Source: Escherichia phage vB_EcoM_JNE01. Taken from it: DNA of 64,000 nucleotides. Within the stretch, counting starts at the first letter, position 1. Every line of letters begins with the position of its first letter. Shown one piece after another: positions 2,089 through 13,382 of this stretch. Under the pieces are notes generated by a model. That model did not search any database. It saw only the letters and a program-made list of their open reading frames with translations, and had not been told where the DNA came from. The position numbers and the translations under genes were made by a program. The DNA lies in the sequence record OR670491; one strand, 5' to 3'.

Positions 2089-2115
2089 GCCAGTACAAAG
2101 TACTGGCTTTATTTT
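2089..2115. terminator. bidirectional rho-independent terminator between convergent gene blocks
   Basis: gccagtac-aaa-gtactggc hairpin flanked by A-run upstream and T-run downstream; lies between plus gene end 2085 and minus gene end 2114. Confidence 0.6.
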
Positions 2116-3319
2116 ATATACCACGACTGGGTATTTGATATAATTGGAATTTAGTGTAGTAATCAGAAACTGTTGTCCCGGCTGCTTGTGGGATATAGCC
2201 ACTCAAATACACATCCCCTTGATTATCCATATACACTGTTGTACATTCACTTGAACAGAATAACTCGGTGTTAGATACTTTAGGAGCATCAACTGGTGTT
2301 ACAAATGTAGTACTTGATGTTGTATTACCGCGACCGAGCTTACCATACGTGTTTATACCACACATATAAAGTGAATCGGCAGTTTTAACCGTAAGCCCAC
2401 CATATGTTAATGAATTTGATTTCATTTCCATATCATCTGATATTGGTAGAGTGGAGATAGTGGATAATACTGTCCAAGAATTAGCGGATGAACCATTACC
2501 CAAGTTACCATCGGACTGAATCCCACTTGCACGAACTGTATATGTATTATTCGTGTTGTGTTTATATACAACCCATGATGCACTCCCACCGAGTTCATAA
2601 TGTATAACAGTATTGTTGGCGAATGCACCCATTTGTGTCCATACTCTAATGTTAGTTGCATTATTACTTATACCAAGCGAACCCCATGTGTTTTGACCAG
2701 TGACCCAAAGTGTTTTATCAATTTTCTGCACAATCACTGCACTTGAACCTGTTTTAACACTATCAACATTCGTATTAATTGACGTAAAAGTTGATAATCT
2801 AGTGGTTGTGTTATTACCAAAATATCCCTGTGTATTCGTCCCCATTCCATATAGCGTACCATTTTCAAGTAAAACAAAAATACCCTCACCTACAAGTTGA
2901 ATGTCCTTAATTTGGGACAATTGTGTAGCATTGAATACTGATGTAAAATATGAAGTACAATCAGTATAAGTACTGGCAGTACTTAAACCTGCACCAATAG
3001 CTTTACCAACCCCACTGTAATAAAATTTATTATCTTCAGTTTGGATTAAATTAAAAGTACCTTGGGCTGTTCTGAAACGTTTTACATTTTGGTATATTAA
3101 AGTCCATTCTTTTACTTTCGCATTATGTACACCATTCCCGAATCCATAGTTTTGTGAAGTAGTTCCACCTATACCCATTAAGTCTCCATTTTTATATAAT
3201 AGTAAGAGTGCTGTTGCTGGAATTACTGACGCACTATAACCATTGTACATAAAGATTTCTTTCACTTCAGGAACTTTCATTTTATTAGCGTATTTAACCA
3301 TTCTTGCAAAAGGTAACAT
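2114..3319 (-). CDS. RCC1-like beta-propeller repeat protein, paralogue 1 of 9 (possible virion adhesin/fibre-type protein)
   Basis: 401-aa ORF; N-terminus MLPFARMVKYAN shared with array; G/N/S/T/Y-rich with GxNxxGxxG-type repeats; AGGAGG RBS. Confidence 0.7.
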   Translation of the reverse strand: MLPFARMVKYANKMKVPEVKEIFMYNGYSASVIPATALLLLYKNGDLMGIGGTTSQNYGFGNGVHNAKVKEWTLIYQNVKRFRTAQGTFNLIQTEDNKFYYSGVGKAIGAGLSTASTYTDCTSYFTSVFNATQLSQIKDIQLVGEGIFVLLENGTLYGMGTNTQGYFGNNTTTRLSTFTSINTNVDSVKTGSSAVIVQKIDKTLWVTGQNTWGSLGISNNATNIRVWTQMGAFANNTVIHYELGGSASWVVYKHNTNNTYTVRASGIQSDGNLGNGSSANSWTVLSTISTLPISDDMEMKSNSLTYGGLTVKTADSLYMCGINTYGKLGRGNTTSSTTFVTPVDAPKVSNTELFCSSECTTVYMDNQGDVYLSGYIPQAAGTTVSDYYTKFQLYQIPSRGI

Positions 3320-3396
3320 AAAATCCTCCTTTATTCATTATACTATATTTAGCCAAAAAGGAAAAGCCAGTACTTGAGTACTGGCATTATAAAGAA
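3320..3396 (-). promoter_or_regulatory. conserved inter-cassette junction: terminator hairpin, TATAAT-like element, AGGAGG RBS
   Basis: minus-strand reading: gccagtactcaagtactggc hairpin + T-run, then aaatatagtataatgaataaaggagg before ATG; near-identical copies between array genes. Confidence 0.55.
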
Positions 3397-11061: not shown

Positions 11062-12171
11062 TTATTTTGGTAAATCAATTTTAGTAAAGACTGCAACATC
11101 TGCACTTGCACCTGGAATGGCGTAATACGATCCAGTACTATATACATCCCCGTCTTTGGTTAATAATGATGTTAATCCGTCACTAAAAGCAACATCACTA
11201 ATCTCACTAACTTCTACAGGTAATTGTAAATTAGCAGCACTATAGATAGCACCCGTTTGAGAATTGTTTAATCCCAAACCACGGTTTCCCCCAATACCTT
11301 TCTGATATGCACTAGTTAATATAATTTGCGTAGCCGTGCTTGTTGCCTCTGAATTTGTCATAAACAAAGGTGAATTATTAGGTAAAGTACTTACAGGAAC
11401 TGCTTTGAATGTAGTTGAATCTGAACTAAGAAAGTTTGGAGTTGTACCACATGTGAAATATGATGTACCATTATAGTAATTGAGTGTATGACCACCAATA
11501 GCTGCATCTATTACACCAGAACTACGCAGTCCCCAAATGTTAACTTGTGTTCTGTTCCCTGTGCCATGTAATCCACGGTCATTCCACCCTGAACTATATA
11601 ACTTATTATCTATGCTAATATACATACTATCATTAGGAGTAGACATAACTTTACGCACATTAGAAGCACATAGTGTTAATGTATATATTGATGAAGAACC
11701 AATCCCCAATACACCACGGTATCCATTAGCCCCAGCACCATAGAGTACTGAACTTGAACTGAGTACAAATATTACACCACCATTGCATACAATATTAGCA
11801 ATTTGATTCACAGGAATTGTATTTGTAAACCACTCCGTTCTATCAACTAATGTAGTACTGTAAGAAGTTGTTGATGATGATGTGAACCAATATGTTTCAC
11901 CGGATGTCCATATCGTATTGTCATTTTTAATAATAACAAGTGTTCGTCCTCCAGTGAAAAAATTAGAAACATCTGCACTTACTAATGTCCAAGAAGATAC
12001 CGTGTTTTTATTACCATTTCCAGATTCACCACCTTGATTTCTGCCTATGTAATATAATTCATGTGAATCAGTCAATACGAATTGACCTTGTGTAGAAGCA
12101 CCAACTTTTATTATATTTTTAGGACCAGGTGTAATATTCCCATAATCAAACAGTCTTACAAAAGGTAACAT
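11062..12171 (-). CDS. RCC1-like beta-propeller repeat protein, paralogue 8 of 9
   Basis: track ORF extends to 12192, but the family start MLPFVRLFDYGN with AGGAGGG RBS is at 12171; only 8 nt separate it from the upstream paralogue. Confidence 0.65.
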   Translation of the reverse strand: MLPFVRLFDYGNITPGPKNIIKVGASTQGQFVLTDSHELYYIGRNQGGESGNGNKNTVSSWTLVSADVSNFFTGGRTLVIIKNDNTIWTSGETYWFTSSSTTSYSTTLVDRTEWFTNTIPVNQIANIVCNGGVIFVLSSSSVLYGAGANGYRGVLGIGSSSIYTLTLCASNVRKVMSTPNDSMYISIDNKLYSSGWNDRGLHGTGNRTQVNIWGLRSSGVIDAAIGGHTLNYYNGTSYFTCGTTPNFLSSDSTTFKAVPVSTLPNNSPLFMTNSEATSTATQIILTSAYQKGIGGNRGLGLNNSQTGAIYSAANLQLPVEVSEISDVAFSDGLTSLLTKDGDVYSTGSYYAIPGASADVAVFTKIDLPK

Positions 12172-12179
12172 ATTCCCTC

Positions 12180-13382
12180 CTATTGTTGCCATAACTGCGT
12201 TGGCATTAATGTTAGTGTAGTAATACTATAAGTGCCATCAGGCAATCTACCACCATTACCATTCCAGCCACCACATGCATATAATTTATAATCTTTAGTA
12301 ATTATTATGGTTCTGCTCCAATCTTTAGATGCCATAAGAACATTGTCATAACCACCACTTATTGCATTAAGATTAAAAATATTCCAAGTTCTAACTAATG
12401 TATTAGTTCCATTACCTTCTTGACCATATGAGTTAGCACCACTACTTCTAACATATGGTGCGTATTGTGCCATAGGTGCACCAATTGATGCATTTCCCAT
12501 ATTACTTGGACAAATAAAAGTACTGTACTTACTTACATCAACCGTGACCGATGTGTTCCTAATTGGTGTTAGCTGATTTACAGATGTAGTCGTACCATTA
12601 CCAGCTTGTCCAGTACTGTTAACCCCGCTATAATATACAGACCCACCAGTAATAAACCACCAAGTAACATCGTATGTAGTACTAATATGTTCTACATTAC
12701 TAATCACGAATTTGTTCAAATATACAACAGAACTACCACCACATCCACTTTCACCAAAGTTATCCTTACCACAAAACCATGCATCTTTATTTGATTTGAT
12801 ATAGTGCGTTCCTTGTAATGAACATGCCATATGTGTAACTTCACCCATATTAGTCATAACTGTTAGTGTAGGTATGGAATTTTTATTACCAGACCCACAT
12901 TCACCATTGGTATTTCTTCCACACGCAATTACTCTACCATCGGTTAATAATATTCTAGTACTTTCACCTATATATACACTCTTGATCATATTAGCCATAA
13001 CACCAATTTTATTAAATGAAGCAGTAACATCAGTCCATGTTCTCAAATAACCATTAACAGGTGTTGCATCTCCATAATCAGAAAATGCACCAACCGACCC
13101 AGTGTAGTATATTTTATTATCCAAATCAATCATCAATGAACCTTGAACACCAAGCCAAAAGGCTGCACATCGCGTTGCAAGTACTGTAAATGACGCAACT
13201 GCTGCTGAATTCCCAAGACCAAATTGATAAAAGTTATTACTACCATAACCATATAAAGTATTAGTTGGGCTATGTAGATACATACAGTTTGTATAATGTT
13301 GTTGTAAAACATTTGAGAACTCTATTGGTTCTGGCCCTGGTGCAATATTCGCGTACTTAACCATTCTAGCAAAAGGTAACAT
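12180..13382 (-). CDS. RCC1-like beta-propeller repeat protein, paralogue 9 of 9 (first gene of the array)
   Basis: 400-aa ORF; N-terminus MLPFARMVKYAN; motifs GSNNFYQFGLGN, GRNTNGECGSGN, GVNSTGQAGNGT, GANSYGQEGNGT. Confidence 0.75.
   Translation of the reverse strand: MLPFARMVKYANIAPGPEPIEFSNVLQQHYTNCMYLHSPTNTLYGYGSNNFYQFGLGNSAAVASFTVLATRCAAFWLGVQGSLMIDLDNKIYYTGSVGAFSDYGDATPVNGYLRTWTDVTASFNKIGVMANMIKSVYIGESTRILLTDGRVIACGRNTNGECGSGNKNSIPTLTVMTNMGEVTHMACSLQGTHYIKSNKDAWFCGKDNFGESGCGGSSVVYLNKFVISNVEHISTTYDVTWWFITGGSVYYSGVNSTGQAGNGTTTSVNQLTPIRNTSVTVDVSKYSTFICPSNMGNASIGAPMAQYAPYVRSSGANSYGQEGNGTNTLVRTWNIFNLNAISGGYDNVLMASKDWSRTIIITKDYKLYACGGWNGNGGRLPDGTYSITTLTLMPTQLWQQ

What the first reader, a model, noticed from the sequence alone, without database searches (positions are those of the whole stretch)
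2114..13382. Nine tandem same-strand paralogues of an RCC1-like beta-propeller protein with identical 5' ends and divergent bodies
Nine consecutive minus-strand genes (360-450 aa) all begin with the same nucleotides (atgttaccttttg..., MLPF[AV]R[ML][VF][KD]Y[AG]N) and then diverge strongly, while keeping a G/N/S/T/Y-rich composition and repeated motifs such as WGIGYNTAGQLGF, GRNVNGELGQGN, GGQNNGQLGNG and GANSYGQEGNGT that match the RCC1 blade signature (G-x-N-x-x-G-Q-L-G). A battery of nine divergent propeller proteins sharing one short N-terminal tag looks like a diversified receptor-binding/adhesin set or a set of virion-targeted effectors. The shared tag could be a virion-anchoring or capsid-targeting peptide (cf. 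the T4 internal-protein targeting sequence), or simply part of a conserved recombination junction. RCC1-like propellers in such an arrangement are not a standard phage module that I can name.
Basis: partly seen in the sequence, partly recalled or inferred. Interest (0 to 1): 0.85.

Follow-up and report, generated by a model that had tools for sequence, protein, structure and literature searches.

The report
Tagged virion propeller-protein gene array
A jumbo E. coli phage carries nine back-to-back genes for very different RCC1-type beta-propeller proteins that all start with the same 12-residue peptide, which most likely acts as an address label that gets varied binding domains built into the virus particle. 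The gene array is already known from related phages, but the label, its reach across protein folds and the function are not.

Summary
Nine minus-strand genes (2114-13382) all start with ATGTTACCTTTTG (9 hits, 0.08 expected). Their bodies are only 17-33% identical. One copy (g7) is split by a frameshift.

Eight of the nine hit Pfam RCC1 profiles and all nine hit phrog_4219. AlphaFold2 gives a confident seven-bladed propeller (pLDDT 90.5) with the first 20 residues outside the fold.

The window comes from an Asteriusvirus-like jumbo coliphage. Its closest relative is phage Turkey5.

The array itself is published: "eleven RCC1-like proteins" in phAPEC6, and multiple copies in 121Q and PBECO4. Family members were found in purified virions by mass spectrometry in phAPEC6, GAP32, JP4, W70 and the Erwinia Eneladusviruses.

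What I did not find described:
- The 12-residue tag is conserved across genera.
- The tag also heads Kelch, ConA-like lectin and glycine-rich proteins in the same arrays.
- Each gene sits in a near-identical terminator / late-type promoter / RBS / tag cassette.
- All gene gains and losses against Turkey5 break at these cassettes.

Best reading: these are minor virion proteins made of a shared virion-incorporation tag plus an exchangeable binding domain. They are probably surface adhesins. A T4 capsid-targeting-sequence-like set of packaged, ejected proteins is the main rival. "DNA condensation" is a naming artefact.

The parts
2114..3319 (-). g1, RCC1-like propeller, 401 aa, tag MLPFARMVKYAN
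   Evidence: ORF. Pfam RCC1 1e-07 and WD40_RLD 2e-20. phrog_4219 6e-103. The orthologue JP4_577 was detected in JP4 virions.
3397..4572 (-). g2, RCC1-like propeller, 391 aa, tag MLPFARMAKYGN. The whole cassette is absent from the close relative Turkey5.
   Evidence: The indel against Turkey5 is bounded by the repeated junctions.
4647..5990 (-). g3, divergent family member, 447 aa, tag MLPFVRLFDYGN
   Evidence: No Pfam hit. phrog_4219 8e-11. The per-blade Gly columns are conserved. AF2 gives pLDDT 64 and pTM 0.72, propeller-like, with residues 292-392 unmodelled.
6063..7214 (-). g4, RCC1-like propeller, 383 aa, tag MLPFARMVKYGN
   Evidence: Pfam RCC1_2 7.5e-11. AF2 gives pLDDT 90.5, a seven-bladed propeller, with residues 1-20 at pLDDT 50-61 and outside the fold. 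Foldseek finds UVR8 at TM 0.75-0.78. The apparent orthologues phAPEC6 gp005 and JP4_582 (near-identical N-terminal 40 residues; full-length identity not measured) were detected in virions.
7286..8476 (-). g5, RCC1-like propeller, 396 aa, tag MLPFVRMFDYGN
8554..9735 (-). g6, RCC1-like propeller, 393 aa, tag MLPFVRMFDYGN
9812..10888 (-). g7 body, RCC1-like propeller ORF without the tag (GTG start), separated by a frameshift from its own 5' end
10812..10991 (-). g7 5' fragment: tag MLPFVRLFDYGN plus 47 codons, then a stop. The 1-nt difference from the intact Turkey5 orthologue lies in the T run at 10812-10825.
   Evidence: Similar tag-only short ORFs exist in other phages.
11062..12171 (-). g8, RCC1-like propeller, 369 aa from the MLPF start. 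It follows g9 by 8 nt and is co-transcribed with it.
   Evidence: There is no terminator between g9 and g8.
12180..13382 (-). g9, RCC1-like propeller, 400 aa, tag MLPFARMVKYAN. It is the first gene of the array in the direction of transcription.
   Evidence: 96% identical to the PBECO4 orthologue.
13383..13460 (-). Promoter-like box TAAATATGATATAAC (13400-13414) plus RBS upstream of g9
10992..11061 (-). Junction cassette g8/g7: terminator hairpin GCCAGTACT..AGTACTGGC with a T run (11037-11055), TAAATATAGTATAAT (11009-11023) and AGGAGG
9736..9811 (-). Junction cassette g7/g6: terminator, late-type promoter box and RBS
8477..8553 (-). Junction cassette g6/g5 (more diverged copy)
7215..7285 (-). 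Junction cassette g5/g4
5991..6062 (-). Junction cassette g4/g3
4573..4646 (-). Junction cassette g3/g2
3320..3396 (-). Junction cassette g2/g1
2086..2110 (-). Terminator hairpin of the same sequence family, closing the array after g1

Best explanation
The array encodes a set of minor virion proteins with one common design. Each protein has three parts:
- a 12-residue N-terminal tag, consensus M-L-P-F-[AVGP]-R-[MIL]-x-x-Y-G-N;
- a short proline-rich linker (I-x-P-x-P);
- an exchangeable beta-rich binding domain. Here this is always an RCC1-like seven-bladed propeller. In sister arrays it can also be a Kelch propeller, a ConA/LamG-like lectin fold or a glycine-rich domain.

The tag is the part that gets the protein built into the particle, by docking to a conserved virion component (inferred).

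Each gene is its own expression unit. A hairpin terminator ends the preceding gene, then come a T4-like late-type TAAATA promoter box, a strong RBS and the tag codons. These near-identical junctions of about 110 nt also serve as homology for recombination, so whole genes are gained, lost and reordered between close relatives (breakpoints shown; mechanism inferred).

My lean, at about 0.5 within this frame, is that the domains are displayed on the outside of the virion at low-copy symmetric sites on the neck, tail or fibres, or at capsid sites. There they would act as accessory adhesins for host-surface or environmental glycans or proteins, giving each phage strain its own mix. They have nothing to do with chromosome condensation.
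For: Shown:
- Family and fold: Pfam RCC1 in 8 of 9 and phrog_4219 in 9 of 9. AF2 gives pLDDT 90.5 and Foldseek TM about 0.75 to UVR8/RPGR/HERC2/RCC1.
- The tag lies outside the fold: residues 1-20 have pLDDT 50-61 and are not part of the propeller.
- Tag conservation far exceeds body conservation. Six of the 14 invariant columns in a 16-sequence alignment lie in the first 12 residues. Among 81 distinct tagged proteins the counts are M1 81, P3 81, F4 80, L2 77, Y10 73, N12 72, R6 70.
- The tag is conserved at the peptide level across genera (Asteriusvirus, Mimasvirus GAP32, Eneladusvirus of Yersinia and Erwinia), with synonymous codon differences such as CCT/CCA and TTT/TTC.
- The same tag sits on unrelated folds inside the same arrays. 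Kelch scores Pfam 1e-35 in Turkey5. Laminin_G_3 scores 35 bits in pEa_49; GAP32_002 has a sub-threshold LamG hit and belongs to phrog_6011 'virion structural protein'. Gly_rich_2/phrog_4474 occurs in phAPEC6, 121Q and pEa_49.
- Virion association comes from published mass spectrometry:
  - phAPEC6 gp003, 005, 006, 007, 009, 010, 549 and 551;
  - GAP32_001;
  - JP4_577, 581 and 582;
  - W70_237-239;
  - Erwinia Eneladusviruses: four 'DNA condensation proteins' plus the array's glycine-rich 'PE-PGRS' protein.
- Peptide and spectral counts are at about the level of the portal or neck proteins.
- W70 (Vequintavirinae) paralogues share a different tag, MLEMLNLG. This fits a lineage-specific docking partner.
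- No tagged ORF occurs elsewhere in the 64-kb window or in 49 kb of the phAPEC6 structural region.
- Each cassette contains TAAATA about 32 nt before the ATG. phAPEC6 structural genes carry [AT]TAAATA upstream. The CBB paper predicts ATAAATA as the late promoter of Rak2-like phages.
- A terminator follows every gene except g9.
- All indels against Turkey5 break at the junctions. Gene order differs in phAPEC6.
- Orthologues are under purifying selection, with dN/dS 0.08-0.25 for six of the seven informative pairs (g3 is identical to its orthologue).

Points favouring outside display:
- All four cargo folds are typical extracellular binding modules.
- RCC1 domains occur inside tail-fibre or tail proteins of other phages: Littlefix 'tail fiber protein', PVP-SE1 gp40, phrog_11922.
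- The proteins are near-neutral (pI 5.1-8.6, 6-7% K+R) and 43-47% G/S/T/N/Y.
- There is no conserved [LIV]xE protease site after the tag.
Against: - Nothing here or in the papers I read locates these proteins in the particle or shows that the tag is needed for incorporation.
- Several mass-spectrometry identifications rest on 1-5 peptides.
- It is unknown whether the tag is retained in the mature protein.
- Anchors of externally displayed phage proteins are normally whole domains, not 12 residues.
- The closest formal precedent for a short N-terminal tag on diverse cargo in a hyperplastic locus is the T4 capsid targeting sequence, which sends proteins inside the head. The head of these phages is T4-like: a gp23-family MCP that is processed, a scaffold and a protease.
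- phAPEC6 and 121Q have an inner body of unknown composition.
- The promoter assignment is by motif resemblance only.
- AF2 says little about the tag itself (low confidence, weak helix).
Confidence: 0.55

Rival explanations
1. The tag is a capsid targeting sequence in the T4 sense. It would bind the prohead scaffold or core, so the propellers and other cargos are packed inside the head with the DNA and ejected into the cell. There they would bind and neutralise host defence or other host proteins. This would be a strain-specific arsenal, comparable to T4 IPI* and the diverse internal proteins of the T-even phages.
For: - T4 internal proteins carry 10-19-residue N-terminal targeting peptides, and only the first 10 residues are needed. 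Foreign proteins as large as beta-galactosidase and GFP are packaged at 20-200 copies and delivered.
[quoted passage not shown] That is the same genetic logic as here.
- The heads of Rak2-like phages are T4-related: a gp23-family MCP that is processed, a protease, a scaffold, a gp55-like late sigma factor and T4-like late promoters.
- 121Q and phAPEC6 have an inner body of unknown composition.
- The abundance is low and turnover between strains is fast. Both fit injected effectors.
- RCC1-like propellers can be tight protein inhibitors. BLIP-II shares InterPro IPR009091 (named; its inhibitor role is from my own knowledge).
Against: - There is no conserved protease site after the tag. 39 of 81 proteins have no Glu at positions 11-30, and no [LIV]xE occurs at a fixed position.
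- The proteins are 40-48 kDa and near-neutral, not small and basic like the T4 internal proteins.
- All four cargo folds (RCC1, Kelch, ConA-like, glycine-rich) are typical of extracellular binding domains and none is enzymatic.
- A seven-bladed propeller would have to unfold to pass through the tail.
- The tag has no sequence similarity to the T4 targeting sequence MKTYQEFIAE (that sequence is from my own knowledge).
Confidence: 0.3
2. The proteins are DNA-condensing or inner-body structural proteins that organise the 350-kb genome in the capsid. This is the suggestion made in the phAPEC6 paper and the source of the 'DNA condensation protein' annotation.
For: - They are virion-associated.
- An inner body is present in phAPEC6 and 121Q, and no homologues of the phiKZ inner-body proteins were found.
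- The family name points that way.
Against: - The name comes from eukaryotic RCC1, a Ran exchange factor that binds nucleosomes, not DNA (my own knowledge).
- The proteins are near-neutral with only 6-7% K+R.
- A scaffold role does not explain 17-33% identity between paralogues.
- It does not explain copy number ranging from 1 in GAP32 to about 13, nor whole-gene gain and loss between phages that are 96-99% identical.
- CBB lacks the RCC1 protein altogether.
- Peptide counts are near the level of the 12-copy portal. My rough estimate is that a 91 x 18 nm body would need several hundred 42-kDa copies.
- The same tag on lectin, Kelch and glycine-rich domains does not fit a DNA-binding role.
Confidence: 0.05
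3. The shared 5' end has no role in the protein. It would be kept alike only by gene conversion or recombination between the repeated junctions, or by constraints on translation initiation. The proteins would reach the virion, or not, by other means.
For: - The identity extends upstream through the RBS, promoter and terminator.
- Indel breakpoints fall in these junctions.
- The first 13 nt are identical in all nine copies, including synonymous sites.
Against: - The peptide is conserved in genera where the DNA has diverged and the codons differ.
- It is conserved on four unrelated folds.
- It is kept in g8, which has no upstream cassette at all.
- W70 paralogues share a different tag without any intergenic cassette.
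- Conservation ends sharply at residue 12, followed by a variable linker.
Confidence: 0.07
4. The array is an assembly artefact of collapsed or mis-joined repeats.
For: Repeated junctions of about 110 nt could mislead a short-read assembler about gene order or copy number.
Against: - The gene bodies are unique (17-33% identity).
- Blocks are colinear with Turkey5 at 94-99% identity.
- Homologous arrays exist in at least 36 phage records.
Confidence: 0.02

Closest known systems
RCC1-like 'DNA condensation protein' / 'regulator of chromosome condensation' arrays of Rak2-like jumbo phages (phAPEC6 gp001-010 and gp549-551, 121Q_234-248, PBECO4; phrog_4219)
   Same: This is the same family, the same genomic position and the same tandem layout. 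Virion association of orthologues is published. This window is simply another member.
   Different: The copy set differs: nine genes here, about 13 in Turkey5 and phAPEC6. The published accounts that I found do not mention the shared tag, its presence on other folds, or the junction cassettes.
Bacteriophage T4 internal proteins (IPI, IPII, IPIII, Alt) with the N-terminal capsid targeting sequence
   Same: A short N-terminal peptide of 10-19 residues is shared by otherwise unrelated proteins and is sufficient for virion incorporation. The locus is hypervariable among close relatives, and the head-assembly machinery is T4-related.
   Different: There is no sequence similarity and no conserved gp21-type cleavage motif. 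The cargo is large, neutral and made of beta-rich binding domains, rather than small basic proteins or enzymes. An interior location has not been shown.
Sets of tailspikes or tail fibres that share an N-terminal anchor module (ViI-like TSP1-4; RaK2 gp526/gp529)
   Same: Several virion proteins with different distal domains share a conserved N-terminus thought to dock them to the particle. They form multi-gene sets that differ between strains.
   Different: Those anchors are domains of about 50 residues or more on trimeric fibres or spikes in the tail module. Here the anchor is a 12-residue peptide on apparently monomeric globular domains, encoded far from the structural module.
Eukaryotic RCC1-like domain proteins (RCC1, UVR8, RPGR, HERC2) and bacterial BLIP-II
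   Same: They share the seven-bladed RCC1-type propeller, with TM 0.65-0.78 and Pfam RCC1 repeats.
   Different: Identity is only 15-19%. There is no evidence for Ran-GEF or chromatin functions. The phage context, the N-terminal tag and virion incorporation have no counterpart.
T4 Hoc and other non-essential capsid or tail decoration adhesins
   Same: They are dispensable-looking, variable virion proteins that carry binding-type domains. 121Q and phAPEC6 have an unassigned decoration protein at the centre of each hexon, as well as tail decorations.
   Different: Hoc uses Ig-like domains and a C-terminal capsid-binding domain at 155 copies per head (my own knowledge). The abundance here looks close to that of the portal.

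Membership tests
RCC1-like repeat beta-propeller superfamily (Pfam PF00415/PF13540/PF25390) | Tandem repeats of about 50-60 residues matching the RCC1 profiles | tested here: met
   Eight of nine have at least one RCC1-type hit at E<=1e-3, and six pass the PF00415 cut-off. 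g3 has none. There is one invariant Gly per blade.
RCC1-like repeat beta-propeller superfamily (Pfam PF00415/PF13540/PF25390) | Seven-bladed propeller fold | tested here: met
   g4: AF2 pLDDT 90.5 and pTM 0.87, with about 28 strands. Foldseek E 2e-20 and TM 0.75-0.78 to UVR8; RCC1 itself gives TM 0.64. g3: inconclusive (pLDDT 64).
RCC1 proper (Ran guanine-nucleotide exchange factor / chromatin binder) | GEF activity on Ran, and binding to nucleosomes | not testable with these tools
   No Ran or histones exist in the host. Identity to RCC1 is 15-17%. The 'chromosome condensation' label is inherited from the family name.
phrog_4219 / virion RCC1-like proteins of Rak2-like and Vequintavirinae phages | Full-length profile match | tested here: met
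   E-values run from 1e-43 to 1e-112 for eight genes, with 8e-11 for g3.
phrog_4219 / virion RCC1-like proteins of Rak2-like and Vequintavirinae phages | Presence in purified virions | not testable with these tools
   This is published for orthologues and homologues only: phAPEC6, GAP32, W70, JP4 and the Erwinia Eneladusviruses.
T4-type capsid-targeting-sequence internal proteins | A short conserved N-terminal peptide shared by otherwise unrelated proteins | tested here: met
   The 12-residue tag is found on RCC1, Kelch, LamG-like and glycine-rich cargo. The similarity is one of design only, not of sequence.
T4-type capsid-targeting-sequence internal proteins | A prohead-protease cleavage site ([LI]-x-E) directly after the targeting peptide | tested here: not met
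   39 of 81 proteins have no Glu at positions 11-30, and no [LIV]xE occurs at a fixed position. The specificity of the Rak2-type protease is unknown, so this is a weak negative.
T4-type capsid-targeting-sequence internal proteins | Small basic proteins located inside the head and ejected | tested here: not met
   The proteins are 38.6-48.4 kDa with pI 5.1-8.6. Location and ejection cannot be tested here.
Tail-fibre / tailspike receptor-binding proteins with an N-terminal anchor domain | Trimeric fibre or spike architecture, an anchor domain, and a gene in the tail module | tested here: not met
   There are no fibre, beta-helix or coiled-coil regions. The predicted structure is a globular propeller directly after a 20-residue leader. 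The array lies among early-type small genes, not in the structural module.

The most novel reading that the evidence does not exclude
The MLPF tag is a portable signal, sufficient on its own, that loads arbitrary proteins into the virion of Rak2-like jumbo phages. The array would then be a hyperplastic arsenal of packaged, ejected binding proteins: propeller, Kelch and lectin-fold inhibitors of host defence systems, in the manner of BLIP-II or T4 IPI*. That would be the first capsid-targeting system described outside the T4 and phiKZ paradigms, and a source of new anti-defence binders.
Probability: 0.25. Interest if true: 0.8.

Novelty: new variant of a known kind. Interest (0 to 1): 0.52.

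Why it matters
These arrays take up 11-16 kb in every Asteriusvirus. They are among the most variable loci between phages that are otherwise 96-99% identical. They are currently mislabelled as DNA-condensation genes.

If the 12-residue tag is a virion-incorporation signal, three things follow:
- It explains how one particle can carry a strain-specific mix of binding domains, which bears on host range and adsorption, or on anti-defence, in phages now being considered for therapy.
- It gives a very small handle for displaying or packaging foreign proteins on or in a jumbo phage.
- It offers a second, independent example of the 'conserved tag plus hyperplastic cargo' logic so far documented mainly for T4 internal proteins.

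If the tag turns out to be irrelevant, the finding reduces to one more annotated paralogue array.

Tried and rejected
1. An exact nucleotide search for the tag in IMG/VR. Only the Asteriusvirus contig was a true hit. The other 15 loci were chance matches inside unrelated ORFs.
The 40-residue version returned only five tag-only ORFs of 36-61 aa from frameshifted copies, so it gave no census of cargo types.
3. A PDB sequence search found no solved phage homologue, only eukaryotic RCC1-like domains.
4. Peptide-level mass-spectrometry data, which could show whether the tag is retained, were not held for phAPEC6. Only protein-level tables were available for JP4, W70 and the Erwinia phages.
5. Repoila et al. 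1994, on the T-even internal-protein locus, is not held.
6. Sigma-70 promoter scan: the cassettes have a perfect TATAAT but no -35 element, and the scan found fewer sites than in shuffles. I therefore read the box as a late-type or -10-only promoter rather than a host promoter.
7. Positive selection: dN/dS against Turkey5 is low apart from g9 at 0.89. Two sequences are too few to interpret that value.
8. The idea that the RCC1 proteins are the 'hairy whiskers' was rejected. CBB has whiskers but lacks the RCC1 protein, and the fold is globular.
9. The idea that the N-terminal strand closes the propeller ('velcro') was rejected. AF2 places residues 1-20 outside the fold, and the tag also occurs on non-propeller folds.
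10. Literature searches for RCC1 in phage tail fibres gave nothing specific.

Full report
**What is there**

The region 2114-13382 holds nine consecutive minus-strand genes. The 18-mer ATGTTACCTTTTGYWAGR occurs nine times in the 64-kb window, only at these gene starts; 0.08 matches are expected by chance.

The proteins are 17-33% identical to one another. In contrast, residues 1-12 are invariant at 7 of 12 positions. The tag comes in two subtypes: MLPFARMVKY[AG]N in g1, g2, g4 and g9, and MLPFVR[ML]FDYGN in g3 and g5-g8.

- g7 is split. The tag-bearing frame (10991 down to 10812) stops after 59 codons, and the propeller body (9812-10888) lies in another frame. The intact Turkey5 orthologue differs by one base in a T run.
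- g8 starts at 12171, not at the longest-ORF start. It follows g9 by 8 nt and has no control region of its own.

**Control regions**

The similarity does not stop at the ATG. Every gene except g8 is preceded by a near-identical cassette of about 75 nt, made of:
- a hairpin terminator (GCCAGTACT-nn-AGTACTGGC plus a T run) that ends the upstream gene;
- a TAAATA-YAK-TATAAY box;
- an AAAGGAGG ribosome-binding site.

The box has no -35 partner. It contains the TAAATA core that precedes structural genes in phAPEC6. The CBB paper predicts this core (ATAAATA, T4-like) as the late promoter of Rak2-like phages. Late expression is therefore plausible but inferred.

**What the proteins are**

- Eight of the nine hit Pfam RCC1, RCC1_2 or WD40_RLD. 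g3 has no Pfam hit.
- All nine hit phrog_4219 'regulator of chromosome condensation'.
- AlphaFold2 of g4 gives a confident seven-bladed propeller (pLDDT 90.5, pTM 0.87). Residues 1-20 have low confidence and lie outside the fold.
- Foldseek matches UVR8, RPGR, HERC2 and RCC1 at TM 0.64-0.78.
- g3 gives a weaker, partly propeller-like model (pLDDT 64).
- The proteins are near-neutral (pI 5.1-8.6), low in charged residues, and 43-47% G/S/T/N/Y.
- No phage homologue has a solved structure.

**Where the window comes from, and what is already known**

The window is from an Asteriusvirus-like jumbo coliphage. Its nearest record is phage Turkey5, at 96% identity over window 40-60 kb.

Relatives annotate these genes as 'regulator of chromosome condensation' or 'DNA condensation protein'.

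- The phAPEC6 paper notes 'eleven similar RCC1-like proteins', detects eight of them in virions by ESI-MS/MS, and speculates about an inner-body or DNA-ordering role.
- The CBB paper lists the multi-copy sets of 121Q and PBECO4 and the virion protein GAP32_001. It notes that CBB lacks the RCC1 protein although it has tail whiskers.
- Further virion proteomes contain family members:
  - W70_237-239;
  - JP4_577, 581 and 582, which include the orthologues of g1 and g4;
  - four proteins in the Erwinia Eneladusviruses.

The array, its RCC1 identity and its virion association are therefore not new.

**What appears not to have been described**

1. The tag is a separate, portable element.
   - It is conserved across genera: GAP32 MLPFSRIIQYGN, Yersinia MLPFPVIVKYGN and MLPFPIISNTN, and Erwinia. 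The codons differ synonymously, so selection acts on the peptide.
   - Among 81 distinct tagged proteins the counts are M1 81, P3 81, F4 80, L2 77, Y10 73, N12 72, R6 70. A variable I-x-P-x-P linker follows.
2. In sister arrays the same tag heads proteins of unrelated folds:
   - a Kelch propeller in Turkey5 (Pfam 1e-35);
   - ConA/LamG-like proteins, namely pEa_49 and GAP32_002, the latter annotated as a virion structural protein;
   - glycine-rich-domain proteins in phAPEC6, 121Q and pEa_49, with borderline Pfam scores but strong phrog_4474 matches.

   The Erwinia phage arrays list a glycine-rich 'PE-PGRS' protein next to the RCC1 genes, and it is detected in virions.
3. W70, from a different subfamily, has three paralogues with a different shared tag, MLEMLNLG.
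4. No tagged ORF occurs outside the arrays in the 64-kb window or in 49 kb of the phAPEC6 structural region.

Together these points argue that the tag specifies incorporation into the particle through a lineage-specific partner. That step is inferred, not shown.

**Dynamics**

Against Turkey5 the region aligns in five colinear blocks of 94-99% identity. Every discontinuity falls in a junction cassette. g2 is present only here. Five Turkey5 genes, including the Kelch gene, are absent here. phAPEC6 has the g8-like and g9-like genes in the opposite order.

Orthologues are under purifying selection, with dN/dS 0.08-0.25. The exception is g9 at 0.89.

The paralogues are therefore old, maintained lineages that are shuffled as cassettes through the repeated junctions. 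They are not recent duplicates. The fEgEco12 paper also singles out these proteins among the few that differ strongly between near-identical phages.

**Mechanism and rivals**

The best-supported frame is a shared virion-incorporation tag plus an exchangeable binding domain, expressed late from individual cassettes.

For the location, I lean toward outside display as accessory adhesins:
- All four cargo folds are typical extracellular binding modules.
- RCC1 domains occur inside tail and tail-fibre proteins of other phages.
- The proteins are not basic.
- No conserved protease site follows the tag.

The main rival is a T4-style capsid targeting sequence:
- T4 uses 10-19-residue N-terminal peptides to load diverse proteins, even foreign ones, into the head.
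- T-even internal proteins share only that peptide.
- Rak2-like heads are T4-related.
- 121Q and phAPEC6 have an inner body of unknown composition.

Peptide and spectral counts are near those of the 12-copy portal. This suggests roughly ten copies of each paralogue per particle. The estimate is rough and is my own. It fits symmetric tail or neck sites, or low-copy cargo. It argues against these proteins being the bulk of the inner body or occupying all 270 hexons.

The 'DNA condensation' reading rests on the family name only. The composition, the variability and the non-RCC1 cargos all contradict it.

**Verdict**

The family assignment is right. The array is already in the literature.

The portable tag on four folds and the cassette architecture are a useful and, as far as I could find, undescribed layer. 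They turn 'function unknown' into a directly testable hypothesis. Interest is moderate. On novelty, this is a new variant of the 'conserved targeting or anchor peptide plus variable cargo' kind.

Noticed in passing
window 14348-17164 (+ strand): A second tandem paralogue array: ten tightly packed genes of 59-69 aa. They share an N-terminal ..H.EYY..LP.. motif and a C-terminal ..L.LIY[KR]Y motif. Function unknown.
   Followed up: partly
window 39061-44434 (+ strand), plus 54235-54444: An 18-member family of small tandem genes (about 75-100 aa) found by all-against-all BLASTP. [quoted passage not shown] Smaller families lie at 49035-53712 (5 genes), at 48583-56718 (4 genes) and at 44891-52570 (3 genes).
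   Followed up: partly
window 10812-10991 and 9812-10888: g7 is split by a frameshift. Reading the RCC1 motif suggests the body frame is ancestral, and that the 'intact' Turkey5 orthologue carries two compensating shifts. Short tag-only ORFs of 36-61 aa also exist in phages CMSTMSU, CRJP21 and others. Such broken copies are therefore recurrent. The cause (sequencing error, pseudogene or slippage) is undecided.
   Followed up: partly
window 40000-60000: This early-type region of small genes matches Turkey5 at 96% over its full length. It matches other Asteriusviruses (PBECO4, slurp01, JP4 and others) over only 2-3% of its length, at about 78% identity. It is a very fast-evolving, or replaced, block.
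   Followed up: no
window 12180-13382 (g9): dN/dS against the Turkey5 orthologue is 0.89 (dN 0.043, dS 0.048), compared with 0.08-0.25 for the other paralogues and the flanking genes. The PBECO4 orthologue is closer (96% aa). This could reflect a recombination patch or diversifying selection.
   Followed up: no
L025 13046-13110 (phAPEC6, upstream of the baseplate wedge gene gp244): The upstream region of a structural gene contains CCCAGTACTGATCTAGTACTTTACTG. This resembles the CCAGTACT..AGTACTGG terminator stem of the array cassettes, and it sits next to an ATAAATA late-type box. The hairpin family may be used genome-wide.
   Followed up: no
L023 5179-7536 and L022 3-2360 (phAPEC6 record MK817115.1): The N-terminal 40 residues of two array genes recur at both ends of the circularised record. 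This suggests a terminal redundancy left in the deposited sequence: 352,598 bp deposited against 350,175 bp reported in the paper.
   Followed up: no
whole window: No tRNA genes were found in the 64 kb. GC skew switches sign near 18 kb, where transcription direction changes from the minus-strand array region to plus-strand small genes.
   Followed up: no
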